Positions 2,123 through 57,536 of a stretch of 64,000 bases of DNA are shown piece after piece. Under the pieces are notes generated by a model. It searched no databases. It was not told the DNA's origin and worked only from the letters and a program-made list of their open reading frames with translations. The position numbers and the translations under genes are program-made. Origin of the DNA: the human T2T-CHM13v2.0 reference genome, Homo sapiens. How positions within the stretch are numbered: the first letter of the stretch is position 1; every line of letters begins with the position of its first letter. The DNA lies in the NCBI GenBank assembly GCA_009914755.4, contig CP068257.2, positions 17,600,001-17,664,000 on the forward strand, read 5' to 3'.

Positions 2123-4094
2123 GGAACTCAGAATTGATTGATGTCCATGTCTATAATTTTTGGCAAAACTGAAATCCAGAGATGAAGTACCTCTATACAA
2201 AAGCGGGTACAAAGCAAAAACACATACATTTCTCCCTATATGCAAAAAAATAATAAAACTTCATTGTGACTTTCTTATCACTCTTAAAACTGAGGTTTCT
2301 AACACATACTTTACTCGAAACTCTATCTAGATTTCCATTTTGTTCCCAGTTCTTTGCTACTCTGTGCCCATATTTCATCAATGATTATGTACTGGCATTA
2401 TTTTCATTTTATCACTTTGAGAACACGAACTTAGGTTTATCTTTTAATTTTAATGTTTAATTTACAGGCCGTGAAAAAAGTACTTCTAGTTACGATTATA
2501 AAGAAAAATGAGAAAAGTAGGTAGCATGGATTTTTATACAAACTGTTTTTAACCTTTTTTAAAATAATTACCAGGCTCAAAGTGTGCTGATAAACTCTTT
2601 GGTATCCATCTCAGGAAAAAGAATTCATAGTAGCTGGATCACAAAGACTCTGTATCTAGTTTTACTTTCTTGATTGAATCAAAGAACAAGTCAAAAAATT
2701 GTTCAGAACACAACATTTTGATGTTATTAATTCAACAATAAAGTAAGAGTTTTACAAACTGCTGAAAGATAGGAACATTTGTGATTCCTGACCAGAGAGT
2801 AAAGATAAAGTTAGAAATTATGTAGCCTTCTGTAAAGGTTGCTTGGTTCATAAAGGCTAAAAAGACGAGGTGCTCTTAGAAGAAGTAGAAACTCTTCAAG
2901 GGAAACTGAGCTCTCTGTAAAGCAAGCAAAGGACAAATTCCTATGGAATCATTGTGTAAGAAAGAAAAGATTAGAACGAGAAATTTCAAAAGTATTACTT
3001 GACTGAGTGAATAATGTAGCGACAACACAATATTCCATCATAAAAATTTCTTCAGAGGCCTATATTAATGCAGCCCATTAATCCTTGGAATTCTTGGATA
3101 ATATATATTTCAAACATTCCCTGGTTGTCTGGTAGTTAGGGTTAGGCACTCTCCATATATATTTTTTCTCCTTTTATAAAAATAAATATAAAACTCATAA
3201 CAGACAAAGAGAAAATTGGAAAGAAGTTGATAAAATTCATCTCCAAAGAAAAAATGAAAATAACATAATTTGATATTTAAAAAAATCTAAAATACATTAT
3301 ACTTAACAACAATAGATAGAATCATGAAGGAGTCTTATTTGGGAGCTCATTAAGGCTAATTTAAATTTTAATAAGACAAGTGTTATTGCCAATCTGAGGT
3401 GTATAAATTTGTTAATTTCTATCATTAATTCTATTATTATCCTTCTCAAATTAATTCAGAGCTTAAAAATCATGTTACTATCTATGTAGTTACCTTTCCC
3501 TTTATTCTTCTAAGGCTGCATTGAGTTTATCAGAGAAAAGAATACCAAGGAATATTAATTAGTTATCTTGTTGTGTAGAATTTATTTAAAATTATAGCGC
3601 TTAAAACTTAGTTATAAATCCTAATATATTGCTATTACAGACATAAATTGTATTGGTGCTATCGTAATAAAAAAGCCATATGATATGAGATGTTAAAAAT
3701 AATTATTCATATTTGAAATAGAAGCCCTATATTTTAAAATGTTACAAAGAATAGACAAGAATACCATTCTAAATCCTTATATTTGTTTTCACTGATAGAT
3801 TATTCTTAGCTCCTTAGAGAGGTCATGGCCTCCAGGCATTTAATCTGTGGTTGAGAGATATTAACCTCTCTTTAACATTTTCACTGTAAGCTGCATAACA
3901 ATAAATTCATTTCCAGAAAGGAATAATTAGTGCAAACCTGGGTAAAATACCATCCAAAGTAGCTGTTAATGTTAATTTCTACATCTCATTATTTATTTTT
4001 GTGTGTTTTCTTAGGGAAGGGAAAAAATTATGTAAACACAGACAGACCCCTTCCTTTTTTGTATCATTATTCAGGCACGTGTCAAAAACCTTTC

Positions 4095-4175
4095 TACCAC
4101 CACATTCTGGCTGTGCAACTTTGATTAAGTCGCTTAACGTCTCTGAGCCTTAGTTCCTCATCTCCATGTGGGAAA
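4095..4175 (+). mobile_element. MIR (mammalian-wide SINE) 3'-core fragment abutting the pseudogene 5' end
   Basis: ctgtgcaactttgattaagtcgcttaacgtctctgagccttagttcctcatctccatgtggg closely parallels the remembered MIR core gtcacttaacctctctgagcctcagtttcctcatctgtaaaatgggg. Confidence 0.45.
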
Positions 4176-4183
4176 GCGAAGAG

Positions 4184-6022
4184 ATGGTCACCAAGGAGAA
4201 GCTGCAGTGTCTGAAAGATTTCCACAAGGACATCCTGAAGCCCTCGCTGGGGAAGAGCCAGAGAGCGCGGTCTGAGGACAAGGCCGAGGGAAAACCTCCG
4301 CAGAGGCAGAAGTGGTCTCGTCTAGCAAGATCGACTTGGTGATCTCCGTGGCTGGCGGCTTCGTGGGCCTGGTCAACGTCTGGCGCTTCCCATACCTCTG
4401 ATACAATAATGGTAAGGTGAATTTCTCATACTTTCCTGTTTGGAGCGGCCTGCCTGTGTTTTTCTTGGAGATCATCACAGGCCAGTACACCTCTGAAGGG
4501 GGCATCACATACTGGGAGAAGATCTGGCACTTGTTCTCTGGCATCGGCTCTGCCTCCATCGTAATTGTGCCCTTCCCGAACGTCCACTACATCGTCATCG
4601 TGGCCTGGGCTACAGACTACCTGTTCCAGTCCTTCCAGAAGGAGCTGCCCAGGGCACACTGCAACCACAGCTGGAACACGCCCCCCTGCATGGAGGACAC
4701 CATGCGCACGAACGAGAGTGTCTGGATCACCATCAGCTCCACCAACCTTACCTCCCCTGTCACTGAGTTCTAGGGGCGCAACGTGCTGAGCTTGTCCCCT
4801 GGAATCGACCATCCGGGCTCTTTGAAATGGGACCTCTCTCTCTGTCTTCTCTTTGTCTGGCTAGCCTGTTTCTTCTGCATCTAGAAGGATGTCAGGTCCA
4901 CGGGGAAGGTCGTCTACTTCACAGCCACGTTCCAGTTCGCCATGCTCCTGAGGCAGCTGGTCCGAGGGCTGATGCTGCCCGGCATGGGTGCCGGCATCAA
5001 TTTTTCTCTGTATCCAGACATCACCTGCCTCGAGGGCGCACAGGTGTGTATTGACGCTACGACCCAGATATTCTTCTCCTAGGCCATCTGCCTGGGGGCC
5101 GTGACCTCTCTACGGAGCTACAACAAGTACAAGTACAACTCGTACAGGGACTGCATGCTGCCTGGATGCCTGAACAGTGGTACCAGTTTTGTGTCTGGCT
5201 TTGCAATTTTTTCCATCCTGGACTTCATGGCACGAAAGCAAGGGGTGGCCATTGCTGACGTGTCTGAGTCAGGCCTGGCCTGGTCTTCGTTGCCTACCCC
5301 AAAGCTGTGACAATGATGCCACTGCCCACGTTTTCGGTCCCTTTTTGTTGTTGTTGTTGTTGTGCTTCTCTTGCTTGGACTGGATGACCAGTTTGTTGAA
5401 GTCGAAGGGGAGATCACGTCCTTGGTTGATCTTTACCCATCCTTCCTAAGGAAAGGTTATTGTCGGGAAATCTGCACCGCCTTCGTGTGTAGCATCAGCT
5501 GCCTGCTGGGGCTGACAATGGTAACGGAGGTTGGCGTCTATGTCTTTGACTACTACGCAGCTAGCGGTGTATGCCTTTTAGGGGCTGCGTTCTTTGACTG
5601 TATAGTTACTGCCTGGATATATGGTGTTGATAATATTTATGACAGTATTGAGAACGTGATCGGCTATCGGGCCGGGCCCTGGATGAAGTACAGCTGGGCT
5701 GTGATCACTCCATTTCTCTGTGTTGGATGTTTTGTCTTCTCGATCGTCAAGTACACACCCCTGACTTAACAACGAAACCTACGTGGACACCATCTGCACC
5801 ATCGGGCTGGGCTGGAGCCTGGCCCTTTCCTCCAGGTTGTGGGTTCCCTTGGTCATCGTCATCCGCCTCTGCCAGACCGAGGGACTGTTTCTCGTGAGAG
5901 TCAAGTAACTGCTGACCCTCAGGGAACCCAACCGCAGGGCTGTGGGGCGCGAGGGAGCCACACCCTACAGCTCCCGCTCCGTCATGAGCGGCGCTCTCAT
6001 GAAACCGACCCACATCATTGGG
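4184..6022 (+). pseudogene. SLC6A6P1: Processed (intronless) pseudogene of taurine transporter SLC6A6, disabled by multiple stops and frameshifts
   Basis: Continuous cDNA-like match to the SLC6A6 protein, recalled from memory, from [20 protein letters not shown] (here [20 protein letters not shown]) through [158 protein letters not shown] to the C-terminal [17 protein letters not shown]. The homology spreads over all three + frames, i.e. frameshifts. In-frame stops include TGA 4399-4401 (replacing the Cys of FPYLCYKNGG), TAG 4771-4773 and TAG 5080-5082 (Y to stop in FFSYAICLGA). The parent gene is multi-exonic, so an uninterrupted CDS means retro-copy. Homology stops abruptly at about 6022, 2 codons before the native stop, with no 3'UTR, poly(A) or TSD found. 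The symbol SLC6A6P1 (a chr21 pseudogene) is given from memory and not verified. Confidence 0.85.
5343..5365. repeat. (TTG)n microsatellite inside the pseudogene
   Basis: ttgttgttgttgttgttgttgtg at the position corresponding to the parental LFFIMLLLLGLD segment; a local expansion. Confidence 0.8.
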
Positions 6023-14435: not shown

Positions 14436-17400
14436 CTACAGTTCCTTGATAATTTTATCCATCTTTGAACTTCACCATTTCATATACACATATGCCAAAA
14501 TTATGTATATACATATATGTACATATATGATACATAGTTATATATAATTTAACAAAAATATAATTTTGAAGTTTGAAATAAGAAGAGGTTAATATATTTT
14601 AAAATAGGTGGGATCATCAGATAGATACATCTACAGATATTCACATAAGCAAAATATCTTTCATAGCTATTCCAAGACAGTTATTATGTTGTACAGCTTG
14701 GATGTAGAAGTGTGTGGCACAAAATAAAGAGAACAAATTATGAGATAAGATACGTATTTCATTATAAGGATAATAATTTTATTGTAAACTTGCTAATATG
14801 TATTATACTATAGCAATTACCTAAATGTACATGTATGTCATTAAAATAACTATGACATTTTAAGCATTTCTATTAAATAACATTCCAAAGTTAGAGTTAA
14901 TGAGTAATTTACACTAATCCTATAAATACAGAATAAATAGTAGTCCATATTAATAAAAGGATATAATCAATATTGTTCTCTAGATTTGAATAATAAAATA
15001 TGAACATAAGATTGTCTTCCAGTGAAACATTCAACCTTGTCTCTGCCTCTCCTCCAGGAATTTCATGTCTCTCCTTTCCTATGAATACTCAAGATTTTTA
15101 AAGACTAAGCTATACACAGCCACCTCCTTAATATCATATACTGATAGTAGAGAGTAAATTTATTTGGATCCTGATTCGCCATATTCACTGAAGTTGAATA
15201 AACATATATCCATTTAGCCAATGGTTCTACTTATAGATGGATTTCATCTGTTCACTTTTTTTCTTATATTTTTTCCTAACTTTTAAAACAAGTTTTTGGA
15301 TTGCAAGCTACTTTTGGATGGGTCTTATTAGGATTTGATCACACCATTTATATTAATAACGTAGCACATCAACTGACACATAATGAGAACTGAATAAATG
15401 TAATTCTTTTTTATTCTGGGCCTAAATATTGTTTAAATAAGCAGGGAAAAACTAAAGTTGAATTTTTAAAAATAATTCTTTGGTTTTACTGTTATGATAA
15501 TTTTCCACATGGGATAGGCTGGTATTTAGCTCCTACTCAGGACTGGTCTTCTTTGGGCAAGTTTTCACATTAGTTTATCACTTTTGTAATCACTATTTAT
15601 GCACAAAGTTGCAACGATATTACGATTGTCTCTTCAGAGTGAGAATTTTGATAAAGTCTAATAAAAACCCATACTTCCTCTGAGATTTTCAGAAAATCCA
15701 CTATGATATTCCCTTTATGCCTGCTGGTTCTGGATAGTGTATTTGACTTAGTATGGCCCCAGCAGAGACTATTATGAGACTTTTATTTGTTGCTTGTGGA
15801 AAAAGCTCTTTTTTGTGCACGATGATCAGTATGTATATGAGCCCAAGACTGTTGAAGAAAATTTGCTAAAGTAAGAAATAAAGGAAAGATGAAGGATGCA
15901 GAGCTCAGAGATCTGGAGAGAAAGAAAAGCCTTGGGTTCTTATTAAATAATGTAACTGAAGCCTGGCCAGTCTACTGACTTTTAATTTACCGAACTTCAT
16001 AAATTCTCTTTTTAATTTTAGTCAGTTTTATATTTTTTCAAACAATCATGCCCCCTTAATTGTGAAGTCTGATCCACGTTATATAATGTGTTGAATATCT
16101 CAAAATATGGAAAATATGAATATACATCCTCCAAACTTCTGAGTTACTGCTACAATTCCCATTTTTTTTTAATGTGAGTAAACTCATCCCTGGAGTAGTT
16201 ATATGAATTTTCTCAAAGTAGTTGTTCACTGTTGAATACCAAATTTGACACAAAAACAGTCTCCAGTCTTATATAATTTTAATTTTTATAAGAGAGACAA
16301 CCTCATGAAAAACACCAATACACACTTTGTGTTGTGTGGATTATGACGCCAAAATAATCACTACCATTCTGAACTCTGTAATCTCCCTCACCTATTAATT
16401 TGGCTATTTCTTGCCCAATTTTAGACAATATTCTTTCTTCATAAAATGATTTCATATCAGTTAGACCTAGATCCTGCTCATTTTCCCAAAATTTTCTTTA
16501 TTTTTATTTTGTTTTGTTGGTCCAGCTACATCAATTTTTCATTCAAAAATACATGTAGACAAAATTGTAACTAAAAGGTCATCAATTTTAATGACTAATT
16601 TGGCAAAAACTGATATCTTACAAAAATTGCCTTAAGCTCCAGAGTCTGCACTAGATTGAGAATTAGTGTTAGCCAAGGACACTGCTAGAGAGGAGATGGG
16701 TGAATGGGCACTGAGATGATGGCTAAGGCCCAAAGCACACTGTTCTTGCCTTACTGCCAGGGGGATATTGACAAGCTTGACAAGAACAAGTGCATGGACA
16801 AAAACAGAAGGCAGTGGTGAAGGCAGCGGTGGCTGCTACATCAGTAAAGCTCTTGGCTTATTATTAGTCGGCCAGCTGTTAAACTATTTTCTTTCAACTC
16901 TAAACCTGATGATCTATACCCTACTTTTTGATGCCAGGGATGGGACTTTGCAAACTGTCTTTCTTCTTTGCCAGCTGGCTTCTCCTTAGGTTATGCAAAT
17001 AGAGAACAATGGAGAGAGTTTGGAGGGACAGGAGGCAGGAGGAGGGACAGGAGCTTTCTCCTTCCTGTCTGCATTCTTCTCTTGTCAGTGGCTCTTCAGA
17101 AGCACTCTTCACTCTGGCAGTGGCAGTTGGCTTTATTATCTAGCTTATTTTGGTCTTTTCAATATCAGCCTTACTACTCCCCTTCAGAAGTCTGGACTGT
17201 AGCTGTCAGCTCAGAAGTAAGACTCCCAGATGCATAGGACACTCTACGCTGCTGAGGTGCAGCTATATCTTGGACAAACGTGCCCAGGGGTTATTGATAT
17301 GATTCTTATTTCTTGATAACATTTTCCATCAAGTTTTAATTCTACTTCTAGTTGAACACATACACACACATACACACATGCATACATAATACATACAGGT

Positions 17401-17464
17401 GATCTTCAAATATGTCACTTTGTTCAATGTCATCTTATTATAATGTTGAAGAGAAAAGAAATTG

Positions 17465-17760
17465 ATTCCCAGCTGGAGCTACAGTGTGTGTGGAGTTTGC
17501 ATGTTCTTCCCATGTCTGTGCAGGTTTGCTCTGCGTATTCTGGCTTCCTCCCACTTTCCAAAGATGTGCATATCAGGTTCATTGGAGTGTGTACATTGTG
17601 CCATAACAATGTAGGATGAGTGAGTCTGGGTGTGGGTGTGAGGGCACCTGCCATGGGATGGAGTTCTGACCTGCACTTGTTACTGCCTTGCATCCTGAGC
17701 TGTCCAGATACGCTCTGGCCACCTGCGACCTTGAGCTAGAATACATGAATAAATCATGAT
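17465..17760 (+). mobile_element. Ancient SINE-like element resembling the conserved central domain of V-SINE/DANA-type fish SINEs
   Basis: gtgtggagtttgcatgttcttccc...cttcctcccactttccaaagatgtgcatatcaggttcattgg...cctgcgaccttgagctagaatacatgaataaatcatg parallels, block for block, the remembered teleost SINE core gtgtggagtttgcatgttctccccgtg...tttcctcccacagtccaaagacatgcaggttaggttaattgg...cctgcgaccctgtagaacaggataaagcggctagagataatg. The assignment rests on memory and is not verified. Confidence 0.35.
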
Positions 17761-17994
17761 CTTAATTTGTATTTATCTGTCTTAAATGTATGTACAGGTT
17801 ACATTCATTTTAATGTTTAATATTAGTAGTGTTTTGTTATCTATTTAGAAGTGTATAGATGTTTTTGTGACTACAAGTATGCCAAGGGAACTTAGCCCTT
17901 GATTATATCAATTAGCCTATGAAAAAAATTGGTTTTGTTATATGCTGTTTTGCTTGAAATCAAAGTTCTCGTATCTATTGTAGAGGTTGTGAGG

Positions 17995-18274
17995 ATTTAC
18001 TATATATATATGTAAATATGATATATTTTGCATAATATATGTATTATATAATATAAACTAAATATATTAATATAAACTATATAATATATAAAATTATAAA
18101 ATATATTATATTTCATATAATTTTAATTGTAATGCATAATTATATGAAATACAATTATAATTAAATATAACGTGTAAATATTATATATTATATACTTCTA
18201 ATAATTATATAATATAAAATATATTGTATATATGAATACAATATATTTTATGTATGTGTGCACATATTAATACA
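17995..18274. repeat. AT-rich low-complexity / degenerate (TATAA/TATAT) block
   Basis: Long run of tatata/ataata/aatata motifs, essentially no G or C. Confidence 0.75.
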
Positions 18275-18600
18275 TGTATTAGTCCATTCAGGCTGCCACA
18301 ACAAAATAGTTTAGATTGGGAAGCTCAGATATTACAGAAATGTATTTCTCACAGTTCTCGAGGCTAGAAAATCCTAGGTAAGTTGCCGGCAGATTTGATG
18401 TCTGGTGAGGGCCTTCTTGCTTCATAGATAGAGGTCTTCTCACTGTAACCTCACATGGCAGAAGGGACAAATGAGTTCCCTTGGACTCTTTATGAGGACT
18501 CCATATCCATGACCTAATCTTTTCCCCGAAAGCCTTCACTCCAAAGATCATCACTTCGGGGTTAAGATTTTAACATATGAATTTTGAGGAGAAAGAAGTA
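18275..18600 (-). mobile_element. MaLR solo LTR (MLT1/MST-like), antisense
   Basis: tgtattagtccattc...ctgccacaacaaaata...tctcacagttctcgaggctag...ggtgagggccttcttgcttcatagatag...ctcacatggcagaagg...ttaagattttaacatatgaattttgagg is the reverse complement of the MaLR LTR consensus architecture. Confidence 0.65.
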
Positions 18601-18639
18601 TTCAGAATATTCAAGTAACATATGTATGTATAAATTCAA

Positions 18640-18900
18640 ATAAATATCATGTGCACACACACAATATATATAAACATATATGTTTATACATATATTTATA
18701 TATAAATATATAGACATATATATAAATATATAGACATATATATTTATAGATATAGCATGTTCATATTTATTTGAATTTATATATAAATATAAACTTTATT
18801 CACATTTGAATATTTACATTTATTTGTTCATAGTATTTACTTGAATAATACTTGAATTCAATTATTTTTTATATGTGTACATATATATATAGTGTGTGTG
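18640..18900. repeat. AT-rich degenerate tandem repeat (about 22-70 bp units such as tatataaatatatagacatata and tatttatttgaat)
   Basis: tatataaatatatagacatata occurs twice in tandem at 18694-18740. Related tatttatttgaat / tatttacttgaat / tatttatttgaat motifs recur downstream. Confidence 0.6.
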
Positions 18901-20140
18901 TTCATAATATTTATTTGAATTTTTTTCATGCTGTTTAGACCCTCTATTATATTTGAACTAAGGTTAAGAATCAATGTTTTTCAGTTTAATTTGTAGCTAT
19001 AGTATACTTAACATATAGCCCACAAGAATTTTGAACCATAGAAGAACTTAATATGTTTTCAGAAGTTTTCATGGATAAGACAAATAATATGACAGAAATG
19101 AGAAAATGCAGCCACAGGAAATTTTCTTAAACATTGTATTCCAAAGCATGAAGAACATTTCTAATGATGACATAGGTTATCCAGAGAACGGCCAAAAGAA
19201 AATTCAAACTACAAGAATAACATCCACTTACTAGCCTTCTATTTTGGAAATTATATTATTATATAAACCAGTGCCAAGTAAAATAGAATTATATATATTT
19301 TATTAGGTACAGTTGTGTGAGTTTTATTTAGACTTTCCAACATAATTTTATAAGTTGCAGTCATTTTTCAACCTAAGGAATAATACAATAAATACAACTA
19401 AAGTTCTTGAAGGGATAGAGTTATCTTATGAATAGAATTTATATGTATCATTGTAGACAAATAAATTAAGCTAATGATCTAGCATTGGACTGATGAGGGG
19501 AATTAAACGCAATAATCAAGGGTGTAGAATTAATATGCAGAGTTGCTGTCTATCTGAAATGTCTAAGAGGTAGGATTTGTGTCTTTTTTATATTCCCCAT
19601 AGCAGTCTTATATGTATAAAACAAAGCAATGACTTCCTCTGTCGCACCAGCTGTATGTACCCCTTGATGTTATAAAAGAGATTGGCTTATCATCTAAGGC
19701 CCTTTCATGATTAATGAGAGAGGGAAAGAAAATGAGCTAATGATTTAAAAATAAAACGGTGGTTTAAGGTAAAAATAAAATTTTACATCAGGAAAAAGGG
19801 AATGAATTGTCCCAGGGGAATGAAATACCAATGATTTCTCCCACTATACTGAGTATTAAATTCATAAAGACATACACTGCTGGTCAGGTGATATGCTAGT
19901 TGCTCAATGGTTTTACTTTCACTGGTTACCATCTTCAGAAGACACATGGATATGACAAGGATAAATATGGATTCATACACACACGCACTGATAAAACTTC
20001 AGAGTTTATTGAACATAATAATTCAGCAGCACAACTCTGTCAACAACTACATCCAAAAAGACACAAGTAATTTTGTCCAGGCTATCAAGACATGAAGAGA
20101 ATGTAAGAAAAAAAAAGGAAAAACAGAAGTTTCCAACCAA

Positions 20141-20142
<2 letters not shown>

Positions 20143-20193
<51 letters not shown>
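20143..20193. repeat. (AC)n microsatellite, about 25 units
   Basis: Perfect acacac... run. The ORF-track poly-CV / poly-HT peptides come from this repeat. Confidence 0.95.
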
Positions 20194-20197
<4 letters not shown>

Positions 20198-52591: not shown

Positions 52592-55500
52592 TTGATTTTC
52601 TTCACATCCAAGGACAAATATAGCAGATCAGCAGATCATATGGCTACATTCTGCTTCGCAAAGGTGTGCAGTAAACTCACGATCCCTTGATCCTTAGAAA
52701 GTTTGGCAGCATTTTTTTTTTCAGTCCCATTTCAAGACCACAAAGTCTGGTTTCAGTTGATAATACAGGATCAGGCCGTTGTCTCTTTAGGCTTATTTTT
52801 ATTCCCCTTTATCCATGTCTTGCTTTAGAAACTGTAATCTAGCACATACCAATATTCAGTTTTCCACAATCTCTGCCACTATGTGTTTCTATTCCATTTG
52901 TGGAGCACAGAAATATTTGTATTGCTTCAGAGCTCATCAATATTTGTTTAGTTGTTCTTTCTGTTTATCTAACAGTGTTATTTGTTTGGTGGGAAAGGTG
53001 CAACCAGATGTGAATTATTTGTACCACAATGACAAGAAGTTCGTGAATCGAGTTTACATATTTATACATCTATGCTGGCTGGAGATTTACATGTGAATAT
53101 TCTTAATGACTATATACTCTACGCATATTGCCAGTTGCCTTCACAGTAACTTCGTTTGAATGTCACAAGTGCATATTCAAGTTAAAAACATACAAATCAG
53201 AACTCTTCCCAATCTTCTCCATTGCAATAAATAAAATAGCTCCACGTTCTTGCAAACTCAAGCAAATAAACTGTCCTAGACTCCTTTGCTTCACATCAGC
53301 TCCATCAAATGTAATACCTAGTTCTCATCATTCTTCATCTCCGTTGCTATTTTGTGAAACTAAATATTCACTACCCACTTACACTTAATCTTGTCACCAT
53401 ATTTATTCCCTTCACAGCATTTATCACACCCTGAAGGGGGTTTGTTAATATATTTTTGTTAATGACATCATTTACCTATTGAACACTGATTGTCTTCCTG
53501 TTCACAGAGCTTTTCCGAATTCATTATAAGAACTCAGCAAATCTTGGGTAAACCAGTAAAAAACATCCATCAGTATTAGATGGCTACATTACGCATTACC
53601 AGAAGTCAGGATTTCTGGTAACATAGCCCGCTTTCGTTTCTCAACAATGTACATTATAAAAAAGATGTAGGCAAATGTTTAATTTTACTTTCAAACTTTT
53701 ATTTAATTTATACTGGGTTTCATATATAAAAGAAAAATAAAAACCATTTTTCATTGCTATTTCATATAAATTGAAACTATGGAAAATGTAATTCCTTGAT
53801 AATGTGGTTTATTCCCTGAAATATAATATTTAATTATGTAAGTTTGCATCAGATACAACCTGTCTACACTCTGACTTTTCTGAAATATTAAAATATGCCA
53901 ACCCAAATATGATATTCTCCTGAAAGTGTTTACTTGAGAGACTTTATTTTCATAGTAAGACAACAACTTTTGTTTGGAGTGCATTTCCTATTCTCATTCC
54001 CCTTAAATATAAATGGGCTTAATGCCCCAATTAAAAGACACATGGCAAGCTGGATAGAGTCAAGACCCATCAATGTGCTGTATTCAAGAGACCCAACTCA
54101 TGTGCAAAGACACACACAGGCTCAAAATATAGGGATGCAGGAAAGTGTATCAAGCAAATGGAAAGCAGAAAAAAGCAGAGGTCGTCATCCTAGTTTCTGG
54201 CAAAACAGATTTTAAACCAATGAAGATTAAACAAGAAAAAGAAGGACATTACATAATGGTAAGAGGTTCAATTCAACAAGAAGAGCTAACTATCCTAAAT
54301 ATATATATCCCCAATACAGGAGGACCCAGATTCATAAGGAGGACCCAGATTCATAAAACAAACTCTTACAGACCTGCAAAGAGACTGAGACTTCCAAACA
54401 ATAATAGTCGGTGACTTTAACATCCCACTGTCAATATTAGACAGAATATTAGCAAGATATTCTGGAGGCCTGAACTCAGCTCTGCATCAAGTGGACCTGA
54501 TAGGTATCTACAGAACTCTCCACCCAAAAACAACAGAATATACATTCTTCTTGGCACCACATGACACTTATTCTAAAACTGACCACATAATTGGAAGTAA
54601 AAACACTCAGCAAATGCAAAAGAACTGAAATCATAACAAACAGCCTCTCAGACCACAGCACAGTTAAACTAGAACTCAAGGTTAAGAAACTCACTCAAAA
54701 CCACACAATCACATGATAATTTAACAACCTGCTCCTGAATGACTCCTGAGTATATAGTGAAATTAAGGCAAAAATCAGGAAGTTCTTTGAAACTAATGAG
54801 AACAAAGAATCTCTGGGATGCAACTAAAGTAGTGTTAAGAGGAAAATTTATAGCACTAAATCCCTATATAAAAAAGCTAGAAAGATCTCAAATCAACCTC
54901 CTAACACCACAACTAAAAGAGCTAGAGAACCAAGAGCAAACAAACCCCCAAACTAGCAGAAGACAAGAAAAAGACAAGCTCCAAGCTGAACTGAAGAAGA
55001 TAGAGACATGAAAAACTCTTCAAAAAATCAATGAATCCAGGAGCTGGTTTCTTGAAAAAAATAATAAAATAGACCACTAGATAGATTAATAAAGAAGAAA
55101 AAAGGGATAAATCAAATAGACAAAAAATGATAAAGGGGATATGACCACTGACCCCACAGAAATACAAACCATTAAATAATACTATAAACATCTCTATGCA
55201 AATAAACTAGAAAATCTAAAAGAAATGGATAAATTCCTAGACATATACACACTCCCAAGCCTGAATCAGGAAGAAGTTGAATCACTGAATAGACTAATAA
55301 CAAGTTTTGAAATAATAAATAGCCTACCAACCAAAATAAGCCCAGGGCCAGATGGATTTAGAGGTAAATTCTACCAGAGGTACAAAGAGGAGCTAGTACT
55401 ATTTCTTCTGAAACTATTCCAAACAACTGAAAAGGCGGGACTCCTCCTTAACTCATTTTATGAGGCCAGTATCATCCTCATGCCAAAACCTGGCAGAGAT

Positions 55501-55535
55501 ACAACAACAACAACAACAACAACAACAACGACAAC
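55501..55535. repeat. (CAA)n microsatellite inside L1 ORF2
   Basis: acaacaacaacaacaacaacaacaacaacgacaac expands the short Thr/Lys-rich linker (DTTKKENF) to a poly-Thr run in the ORF2 frame. Confidence 0.9.
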
Positions 55536-57536
55536 AAAGAAAACTTTAGGCCAATATCACTGATGAACATTGGTTTAAAAATCCTCAATAAAATACTGAC
55601 AAACAGAATCCACCAGCACAACAAAAAACTTACTCACCTTGATAAAGTCAGCTCCATCCCCAGGATGCAAAGCTGGTTCAATGTACACAAATCAATAAAT
55701 GTAATTTATCACATAAACAAAACTAAAGACAAAAACCACATGATTACCTCAACAGATGCAGAAAAGGCCTTGGATAAAATTCCACATCTTTTCGTGTGAA
55801 AAACTCTCAATAAACTAGATATTGAGGACATATACCTCAAAATAATAAGAGCCATTTATGAAAAACCTACAGCCAATATCATGTTGAATAGGCAAAAGCT
55901 GGAGGCATTACCCTTGAAAATCAGCACAAAACAAAGATGCCTTCTCTCACCACTCCTATTCAACATAGTATTCAAAGTTCAGGCCAGGGCAATCAGGCAA
56001 GAGAAAGAAATAAAGGGTATTCACATAGGAAGAGAAGAAGTCAAACTGTCTTTGTTTGCAGATGACATGATCCTATAATCAATGTGCAAAAATCACAAGC
56101 ATTCCTATACACCAACAACATATAAGCAGAGAGCCAAATCATGAAGGAACTCCCATTCACAATTTCTATAAAGAGAATAAAATACCTAGGAATACACTTA
56201 ACAAGTGAAGTAGAGGACCTCTTCAGGTAGAACTACAAACCACTCCTCAAAGAAATCAGAGAGGAAGGAATAAAAGGAAAAAAACCCCATTCCCACGGAG
56301 AGAAAGAATCGATATCATGAAAATGGCCATATTGCCCAGAGTAATTTGTAGATTCAATGCTATTCCCATCAAACTACCATTGACATTCTTTACAGAATAT
56401 GGAACCAAAAAATAGCTTGTATACCAAAGACACTCCTAAGCAAAAAGAACAAAGCTGGAACCATCACGCTACCCAACTTCGAACTATACTACAAAGCTAC
56501 AGCACCCAAAACAACATGGTACTTGTACAAAAACTGACACAGACCAATTGAACACAGTAAAGAATTTAGAAATAAGACTGCACATCTAAAACAATCTGAT
56601 CTTGGACAAACCTGACAACAACAAGCAATGGGGAAAAATTCCCTATTTGATAAATGGTGATAGAACTGGCTAGCCATATGCACAAAATTTAAACTGGACT
56701 CCTTCCTTACACCTTATACAAAAATTAACTCAAGATGGACTAAAAACATAAATGTCAAACCCAAAACTATAAAAAACCCTAGAAGAAAATATAGATAATA
56801 CCATTCAGCCACAGGCAAAAATTTCATGACAAAAACATCAAGACCAACTGCAACGAAAGCAATAATTTACAAATTGGGTCTAATTAAACTTAAGAGCTTC
56901 TGCAGAGCAAAATAAACTATCATCAGAGTGAACAGACAACCTACAGAATGGTATAAAATGTCTGCACCCTATCTATCTGACAAAGGTCTAATATACAGAG
57001 TCTACAAGGAACTTAAACACATTTACAAGAAAAAAAAATCCCATTAAAAACTGGGCAAAAGATATGAACAGACACTTCTCAAAAGAAGACATTTATGTGG
57101 GCAAGAAACATATGAAGAAAAGTTCAACATCAGTCTTCATTAGAGAAATGTAAATCAAAACTACAATGAGATACTATCTCACATCAGTCAGAATGGCGAT
57201 CATTAAAAAGTCTGGAAACAACAGATGCTGGCAAGGCTGTGGAGAGTTAGGAATGCTTTTACGCTGTTGGTGGGACTGTAAATTAGTTCAACCATTGTGG
57301 AAGATAGTTTGGCGATTCCTCAAAGACCTAGAACCAGATATACTATTTGACCCAGCAATCATATTACTGGGTATAAACCCAAAAGAATATAAATCTTTCT
57401 ATTATGAAGACACATGCATGTGTATGTTCATTGCAGCACTATTCATAATAGCAAAGACATGGAATCAACCGAAATGTCCATCAGTCATAGACTGGATAAA
57501 GAAAATGTAGTACATATACACCATGGGATACTATGC

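What the first reader, a model, noticed from the sequence alone, without database searches (positions are those of the whole stretch)
17465..17760. Element resembling the conserved core of teleost V-SINE/DANA-type SINEs in primate DNA
About 300 bp align block for block with a sequence I recognise as the strongly conserved central domain of abundant fish tRNA-derived SINEs (zebrafish DANA-like). Window gtgtggagtttgcatgttcttccc / fish gtgtggagtttgcatgttctcccc. Window cttcctcccactttccaaagatgtgcatatcaggttcattgg / fish tttcctcccacagtccaaagacatgcaggttaggttaattgg. Window cctgcgaccttgagctagaatacatgaataaatcatg / fish cctgcgaccctgtagaacaggataaagcggctagagataatg. If real, this is a very old, possibly exapted SINE relic (V-SINE/MamSINE-type conserved element) rather than a primate-era insertion. 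Elements of this kind are sometimes conserved noncoding enhancers.
Basis: partly seen in the sequence, partly recalled or inferred. Interest (0 to 1): 0.5.

Follow-up and report, generated by a model that had tools for sequence, protein, structure and literature searches.

The report
MER6A transposon carrying fish SINE fragment
The fish-SINE-like stretch is real, but it is the well-known internal segment of an ordinary, dead MER6A DNA transposon copy in primate DNA, not a free-standing ancient or exapted SINE relic.

Summary
The quoted blocks are at the stated coordinates, and the similarity to fish V-SINEs is far above chance: z = 10-27 against published fish and frog consensus sequences, over window 17487-17598.

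The 296 bp are not an element of their own. They lie inside a full-length, 607-bp copy of MER6A at 17396-18002 (+). MER6A is a non-autonomous Tc1/mariner MITE.

- **Match to consensus:** the copy aligns end to end with the published MER6/MER6A consensus at 79% identity (BLAST E 4e-66 and 3e-55).
- **Subfamily:** it carries the roughly 260-bp internal deletion that defines MER6A.
- **Ends:** they match the consensus inverted-repeat termini, and TA flanks both sides.
- **Other copies:** similarity to 14 independent copies from public contigs stops at these ends.

MER6 was already known to carry a head-less Ac1-like V-SINE (Ogiwara 2002, as cited in Luchetti 2019, PMC6887750).

In this copy the SINE-derived part has decayed as much as the rest (non-CpG identity 83.0% vs 82.8%). 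Only 4 of the 35 consensus CpGs remain. So nothing suggests exaptation.

Verdict: already known, ordinary, low interest.

The parts
17394..17395 (.). TA dinucleotide flanking the 5' end (target-site duplication of a Tc1/mariner insertion)
   Evidence: The sequence reads ...ACATA|CAGGTGATC. Other copies also show TA|CAGCAGGT, for example L027 and L021.
17396..17419 (+). 5' terminal inverted repeat of MER6A, degenerate
   Evidence: 15 of 24 positions match the consensus 5' terminus CAGCAGGTCCTCGAATAACGTCGT.
17396..17461 (+). 5' mariner-derived arm of MER6A (consensus 1-67)
   Evidence: Global alignment to the MER6A consensus. The paper maps the first ~56 bp to Mariner-2_CPB.
17462..17745 (+). 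Ac1-like V-SINE-derived module (consensus 68-341). It starts at a B-box remnant TTGATTCC (17462-17469). The tRNA head is missing, and the SINE tail is removed by the MER6A deletion. This is the finding's region.
   Evidence: MER6 consensus 68-367 aligns to published fish Ac1-like consensi from their position ~54-60 onward. Window alignment; B-box remnant. No tRNA is found by ARAGORN or Rfam.
17487..17598 (+). V highly conserved domain, the only part directly and significantly similar to fish and frog V-SINEs
   Evidence: blastn gives 71-76% identity and E 1.5e-16 to 3e-6 against 10 published consensi. z = 10-27 against shuffles.
17603..17612 (+). 10-bp insertion private to this copy (ATAACAATGT)
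   Evidence: It appears as a gap in the consensus and in all five other sequences aligned.
17744..17750 (+). Junction of the ~260-bp internal deletion that distinguishes MER6A from MER6
   Evidence: MER6 positions 341-602 are absent from the window. Independent copies L004 and L021 have a gap at about the same place, while L013 and L034 carry the full MER6.
17750..18002 (+). 3' arm of MER6A (MER6 consensus 603-860)
   Evidence: blastn gives 78.7% identity over 258 columns, E 2.9e-55. Global alignment.
17979..18002 (+). 3' terminal inverted repeat, degenerate
   Evidence: 17 of 24 positions match the consensus 3' terminus ...GTGAGGACTTACTG.
18003..18004 (.). TA dinucleotide flanking the 3' end
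   Evidence: The window reads ...GGATTTACTA|TA. TA also follows the 3' end in L029, L004, L026, L007, L027 and L013.

Best explanation
Window 17396-18002 (+) is one fixed, inactive copy of MER6A. MER6A is a roughly 605-bp non-autonomous Tc1/mariner DNA transposon (MITE) found in primates.

**How it got there (inferred from family knowledge).** A mariner transposase supplied in trans bound the terminal inverted repeats, cut the element out, and pasted it into a TA dinucleotide. That TA was duplicated and now flanks both ends.

**Where the fish-like sequence comes from.** The finding's stretch (about 17462-17745) is a passenger inside the MITE. It is the body of an Ac1-like V-SINE that had retroposed into the MITE's ancestor before the family amplified. 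It lacks most of the tRNA-derived head, so it has no A box and no polymerase III promoter. In the MER6A subfamily it also lacks the SINE tail. It therefore never moved as a SINE in primates and spread only by riding in the DNA transposon.

**What has happened since.** The copy has decayed neutrally.

**Shown here:** family membership, boundaries, the TA flanks, the subfamily deletion, the V-SINE homology, and the uniform decay.

**Inferred from literature or established knowledge:** the transposition mechanism, the order of events in forming the chimera, and the age.
For: - **Match to the published consensus.** The MER6 consensus (transcribed from the supplement of PMC6887750) hits the window in two colinear pieces. 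Positions 25-340 align to 17419-17743 (76.4%, E 4e-66). Positions 603-859 align to 17750-18001 (78.7%, E 2.9e-55). Between them, 262 consensus bases are missing.
- **End-to-end alignment.** A semi-global alignment to the reconstructed MER6A consensus covers positions 1-605 against 17396-18002. Identity is 79.0% and Jukes-Cantor distance 0.246. The published family means are 19-23%.
- **Ends.** They match the consensus termini at 15/24 and 17/24 positions, and TA lies on both sides.
- **Independent copies.** 14 MER6/MER6A copies were recovered from public metagenome contigs. Their similarity to the window lies only within 17420-18005 and never extends into the flanks. L004 and L021 have a deletion at about the same place, while L013 and L034 are full MER6.
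- **V-SINE homology.**
- **No tRNA gene or tRNA-like match**.
- **Neutral decay.** CpG count falls from 35 to 4, with observed/expected 0.18. Non-CpG identity is 83.0% in the SINE part, 82.4% in the 3' arm and 84.4% in the 5' arm. Fisher p = 1.0 for SINE part vs arms, and p = 0.48 for the V domain vs the rest.
- **Literature.** The V domain inside human MER6, the Ac1 origin, the Mariner-2_CPB-like ends, the copy numbers (364-428 MER6 and 482-648 MER6A per primate genome) and the ages are all in PMC6887750.
Against: - The two ends of this copy are poorly complementary to each other because of decay and small indels. TIR status therefore rests on similarity to the consensus termini.
- The first 5-7 bases at the 5' end can be aligned in two ways, starting at 17392 or at 17396.
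- The consensus was transcribed from a machine-read PDF: 860 of 865 bases were recovered, and MER6A was rebuilt from MER6 plus the stated deletion. Identity figures may be off by about a percent.
- No Dfam or RepeatMasker run was possible.
- Cross-species conservation at the orthologous locus could not be examined, so a locus-specific function is not excluded.
Confidence: 0.95

Rival explanations
1. A free-standing, very old V-SINE retroposon relic that inserted as a SINE and was kept by selection.
For: The V domain and SINE body homology are real. A B-box remnant, TTGATTCC, sits at 17462-17469.
Against: - Homology to a DNA-transposon consensus runs without a break across both edges of the SINE-like part, out to the consensus termini and TA flanks.
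- Independent copies share those arms.
- There is no tRNA head and no SINE tail.
- The literature reports no V-SINEs as such in amniotes.
Confidence: 0.01
2. This is a MER6A copy, but its V domain has been exapted here, for example as an enhancer or part of a transcript, and is under purifying selection.
For: - The paper speculates about roles for the V domain in mRNAs and lncRNAs, and notes that about 40% of copies lie in or near genes.
- In this copy the V domain has slightly higher non-CpG identity (85.5%) than the whole element (82.9%).
Against: - That difference is not significant (Fisher p = 0.48).
- 7 of the 12 consensus CpG-site bases in the V domain have changed.
- A private 10-bp insertion sits at the 3' edge of the V domain.
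- The copy lies in AT-rich, repeat-rich DNA between a decayed microsatellite and an AT-rich low-complexity tract.
Confidence: 0.03
3. A full-length MER6 copy that lost about 260 bp by an independent local deletion after insertion, rather than a member of the MER6A subfamily.
For: The deletion end points differ by a few bases among the window, L004 and L021.
Against: - The gap (MER6 341-602) matches the published 261-bp MER6A deletion.
- It is in about the same place in two independent copies.
- The small differences in the junction lie within what 20% divergence and alignment ambiguity allow.
Confidence: 0.03
4. Chance similarity, or fish DNA contaminating the assembly.
For: None found.
Against: - z = 10-27 against shuffles, and E down to 4e-66 against MER6.
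- The element is embedded in Alu-bearing DNA.
- It shows mammalian-type CpG decay.
- It is closer to the primate MER6A consensus (79%) than to any fish consensus (71-76%, and only over the V domain).
Confidence: 0.005

Closest known systems
MER6A (Repbase/Dfam; Tc1/mariner non-autonomous DNA transposon, MITE) of primates, bats and eulipotyphlans
   Same: Full-length colinear match to the consensus. Termini matching the consensus inverted repeats. TA flanks. The subfamily-defining ~261-bp internal deletion. The internal V-SINE-derived module. Divergence typical of the family.
   Different: Nothing of substance. This copy has a private 10-bp insertion (17603-17612) and small indels near both ends.
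MER6 (865-bp parent variant)
   Same: Same ends and the same V-SINE module. The published consensi differ by 0.3% outside the deletion.
   Different: MER6 retains about 261 bp, including the SINE tail (…GCGGGTTGGAAAATGAATGAATGAA) and further internal sequence. The window copy lacks this.
Ac1 / Ac1-like V-SINEs of bony fishes (V-SINE superfamily, which also includes zebrafish DANA)
   Same: The V highly conserved domain (window 17487-17598, 71-76% to published consensi). Through the MER6 consensus, the rest of the SINE body as well.
   Different: No tRNA-derived head with an A box and no LINE-type tail. Not mobilised by a LINE, and embedded in a DNA transposon. Similarity to DANA itself was not tested here.
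Exapted ancient SINEs of amniotes (AmnSINE1, LF-SINE, MamSINE1-type conserved non-coding elements)
   Same: SINE-derived sequence carrying a superfamily core domain in a mammalian genome.
   Different: Those carry Deu or other cores and inserted as SINEs. They are recognised by strong cross-species constraint at individual loci. Here the core is V, it was delivered by a MITE, and the copy shows uniform neutral-type decay.

Membership tests
MER6A (Tc1/mariner MITE) | Colinear sequence similarity to the family consensus from end to end | tested here: met
   Consensus 1-605 aligns to window 17396-18002 at 79.0% identity. blastn E values are 4e-66 and 2.9e-55.
MER6A (Tc1/mariner MITE) | About 24-bp terminal inverted repeats | tested here: met
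   The consensus ends are mutually inverted: CAGCAGGTCCTC...TAACGTCG against the reverse complement of the 3' end. The window ends match them at 15/24 and 17/24 positions. The two window arms are themselves only weakly complementary because of decay.
MER6A (Tc1/mariner MITE) | TA target-site duplication | tested here: met
   TA lies at 17394-17395 and at 18003-18004. TA also follows the 3' end of six other copies.
MER6A (Tc1/mariner MITE) | 261-bp internal deletion relative to MER6 | tested here: met
   MER6 positions 341-602 are absent. L004 and L021 have a gap at about the same place, and it is absent from L013 and L034.
MER6A (Tc1/mariner MITE) | No coding capacity (non-autonomous) | tested here: met
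   The longest ORF overlapping the element is 87 aa, which is not transposase-sized.
MER6A (Tc1/mariner MITE) | Dispersed multi-copy family whose homology stops at the element ends | tested here: met
   14 further copies were found on unrelated contigs. Their similarity to the window is confined to 17420-18005.
MER6A (Tc1/mariner MITE) | Ends related to an autonomous mariner (Mariner-2_CPB) that supplied the transposase | not testable with these tools
   No Repbase or Dfam library, and no turtle genome, is available here. The claim rests on PMC6887750.
V-SINE (as a SINE insertion in its own right) | V highly conserved central domain | tested here: met
   Window 17487-17598 against 10 published V-SINE consensi: 71-76% identity, z = 10-27.
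V-SINE (as a SINE insertion in its own right) | tRNA-derived head with A and B boxes | tested here: not met
   ARAGORN finds no tRNA. Rfam finds nothing at the gathering threshold or at E <= 1. Only a B-box remnant is present. The fish consensi align from their position ~54-60 onward.
V-SINE (as a SINE insertion in its own right) | LINE-related 3' tail ending in short tandem repeats | tested here: not met
   The tail present in MER6 (…AAAATGAATGAATGAA) falls inside the MER6A deletion and is absent from the window.
V-SINE (as a SINE insertion in its own right) | Element boundaries at the SINE ends, with unrelated unique flanks | tested here: not met
   Both flanks of the SINE-like part are MER6A arms shared with other copies.
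DANA (zebrafish) specifically | Closest similarity to the DANA consensus | not tested
DANA is listed among V-domain SINEs. The literature names Ac1 as the closest fish family.
Exapted SINE-derived conserved non-coding element | Purifying selection at the locus: cross-species constraint, or at least slower decay than neighbouring neutral sequence | tested here: not met
   Only the within-copy test could be run. SINE part vs arms: 83.0% vs 82.8% non-CpG identity, p = 1.0. V domain vs the rest: p = 0.48. CpG count falls from 35 to 4. Cross-species conservation is not testable here.

The most novel reading that the evidence does not exclude
This particular MER6A copy, or just its V domain, might have been recruited as a regulatory or transcribed element at its locus. 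That would make it a case of a fish-type SINE core exapted in primates after delivery by a DNA transposon.
Probability: 0.03. Interest if true: 0.35.

Novelty: already known. Interest (0 to 1): 0.06.

Why it matters
For the scan it matters little. This is one of several hundred ordinary, dead MER6A copies in a primate genome, and RepeatMasker would label it at once.

The family itself is a curiosity. It is a chimeric MITE that carried a fish-type V-SINE core into mammals, which otherwise lack V-SINEs, and where its two parent elements came from is unresolved. That is already documented (Ogiwara 2002 as cited; Luchetti 2019, PMC6887750), and this copy adds nothing to it.

The practical lesson is that SINE-core similarity in mammalian DNA should be checked against the flanks for transposon arms before ancient exaptation is proposed.

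Tried and rejected
- **Inverted-repeat search on 17300-18400.** The AT-rich low-complexity tract at 18005-18256 swamped it, and the decayed TIRs did not appear. They were found only by alignment to the consensus.
- **Viral-contig scan for the MER6 18-mer.** It gave two hits, both chance matches limited to the 18-mer.
- **Rfam and ARAGORN for a tRNA head.** Nothing was found. The two Rfam matches at E of 0.25 and 0.84 (mir-297 in the CA-rich tract, sR28) are far below their gathering scores and are treated as chance.
- **Direct comparison of the 3' SINE body (17601-17749) with the fish consensi.** Not significant, so that homology rests on the MER6 consensus as an intermediate.
- **Family of the SLC6 pseudogene.** My recollection that the SLC6-like pseudogene elsewhere in the window was GAT3 was wrong. 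The PDB search gives the taurine transporter.
- **Not run.** The large protein-database searches, structure prediction and covariance-model tools were not used, because the question was settled by DNA alignment and the literature.

Full report
**Observation.** The window is primate DNA: six matches to the Alu core against 0 expected. The 20-mer GTGTGGAGTTTGCATGTTCT occurs once, with 0.01 expected.

**Lead from the literature.** A full-text search for V-SINEs in mammals returned Luchetti et al. 2019 (PMC6887750). The paper makes these points:
- V-SINEs as such are absent from amniotes.
- The V highly conserved domain sits inside the human DNA transposon MER6 and its deletion variant MER6A. The paper credits this observation to Ogiwara et al. 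2002.
- MER6 is an 865-bp Tc1/mariner MITE with 24-bp TIRs and TA target-site duplications. MER6A differs by a 261-bp internal deletion.
- The ends resemble Mariner-2_CPB of a turtle.
- The interior is a nearly full-length, head-less Ac1-like bony-fish V-SINE.

The supplement prints the MER6 and MER6A consensus sequences and the consensi of fish Ac1-like and frog V-SINEs. I transcribed these, recovering 860 of the 865 MER6 bases.

**Test against MER6.** blastn of the MER6 consensus against the whole window gives two strong colinear hits:
- Consensus 25-340 aligns to 17419-17743 (76.4%, E 4e-66).
- Consensus 603-859 aligns to 17750-18001 (78.7%, E 2.9e-55).
- The 262 consensus bases between them are missing, which is the MER6A deletion.

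All other hits in the window are short matches to simple repeats. A semi-global alignment to the reconstructed MER6A consensus covers positions 1-605 against 17396-18002. Identity is 79.0% and Jukes-Cantor distance 0.246. This is close to the published family means of 19-23%.

**Ends.** The element reads TA|CAGGTGATC…GGATTTACTA|TA. Its ends match the consensus termini at 15/24 and 17/24 positions. The finding's coordinates 17465-17760 correspond to consensus 71-358. That is the SINE-derived interior plus about 15 bp past the deletion junction.

**Independent copies.** I scanned public metagenome contigs for an 18-mer from the non-SINE 3' arm. It returned 33 loci, 14 of which carry MER6 or MER6A copies, evidently mammalian host DNA. 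Three results follow:
- Their similarity to window 16400-19000 is confined to 17420-18005 and never enters the flanks.
- In a multiple alignment, L004 and L021 have the window's internal deletion at about the same place, while L013 and L034 carry the full MER6 interior.
- TA follows the 3' end in six of these copies.

So this is a dispersed repeat whose boundaries are the MER6A termini, not the edges of the SINE-like part.

**Fish similarity.** The window element hits all ten published V-SINE consensi over 17487-17598 at 71-76% identity, with E from 1.5e-16 to 3e-6. z-scores are 10-27 against dinucleotide shuffles. The 3' body (17601-17749) is not significant on its own (z <= 2.4). However, the undecayed MER6 consensus aligns to the fish consensi over positions 68-367 (72-77.5%, E down to 8e-54). 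It aligns to the frog consensi only over the V domain. The fish consensi align from their position ~54-60 onward, so most of the tRNA-like head is absent. In the window only a B-box remnant, TTGATTCC, survives at 17462-17469. ARAGORN and Rfam find no tRNA.

**Selection.** Within this copy, non-CpG identity to the consensus is 85.5% in the V domain, 83.0% in the whole SINE-derived part, 82.4% in the 3' arm and 84.4% in the 5' part. The differences are not significant: p = 0.48 for the V domain vs the rest, and p = 1.0 for the SINE part vs the arms. Of the 35 CpGs in the consensus, 4 remain, with observed/expected 0.18. Half of the CpG-site bases have changed, mostly C>T and G>A. A private 10-bp insertion lies at 17603-17612. 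This is the pattern of neutral decay in methylated mammalian DNA. Cross-species conservation could not be examined with these tools.

**Mechanism.**
- *Inferred from family knowledge:* a mariner transposase acting in trans on the TIRs inserted the MITE into a TA.
- *Supported by the missing head and tail shown here:* the V-SINE fragment was a passenger without a polymerase III promoter or a LINE-recognised tail, so it spread only with the MITE.
- *Age:* published estimates for the family are about 50-70 Mya (Pace & Feschotte, as cited) or about 96 Mya. This copy's divergence, 0.19 at non-CpG sites and 0.25 overall, fits that range at roughly 2.2e-9 substitutions per site per year.

**Comparison and verdict.** The element meets every MER6A criterion that could be tested. 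As a SINE in its own right, it fails three of the four V-SINE criteria: head, tail and boundaries. Both the phenomenon and the family are already described, so interest is low.

Noticed in passing
window ~4185-6020 (+): An intronless, frame-disrupted copy of a taurine-transporter (SLC6A6/TauT)-like coding sequence forms a GC-rich island (0.5-0.6) in AT-rich DNA. ORFs 4417-4773 and 5362-5769 hit Pfam SNF (PF00209) at profile positions 48-158 and 354-487, colinear with their DNA spacing. The best solved relative is the taurine transporter (232 bits, against 137 for GAT3). The N-terminus [19 protein letters not shown] starts at 4185. It is most likely a processed pseudogene.
   Followed up: partly
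window 18001-18256: An AT-rich low-complexity tract, (TATATAA)n-like with several overlapping periods, begins exactly at the 3' TA flank of the MER6A copy. It hid the TIRs from the inverted-repeat search.
   Followed up: partly
window 17355-17393: An impure CA/CATA-type microsatellite directly abuts the 5' end of the MER6A copy. It gives a sub-threshold Rfam match to mir-297 (E 0.25, 22.7 bits against a gathering score of 90), which I take to be chance.
   Followed up: partly
window 20142-20197: A clean (CA)28 dinucleotide microsatellite. It is also the source of spurious blastn hits to the GT-rich stretch of the MER6 consensus.
   Followed up: no
window 9215, 21576, 41676, 42891, 47405, 48283: Six matches to the Alu core sequence on both strands, which establish primate origin. 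Rfam at the gathering threshold reports no family anywhere in the window.
   Followed up: no
window 55225-55563 and 57166-57510 (+): Two ORFs whose translations look, from memory, like LINE-1 ORF2 fragments. Pfam gave no hit at E <= 0.001, so this is unverified.
   Followed up: partly
window ~4090-4170: Just upstream of the TauT-like pseudogene, the sequence ...taagtcgcttaacgtctctgagccttagttcctcatctc resembles, from memory, the MIR SINE core. Not tested.
   Followed up: no
loci L003, L004, L006-L008, L013, L014, L021, L026-L029, L033, L034: 14 of the 33 public metagenome contigs containing the 18-mer TATATCAATTAGCCTATG are MER6/MER6A copies, meaning mammalian host DNA assembled into metagenomes. 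L027 carries three MER6 fragments within 4 kb.
   Followed up: partly
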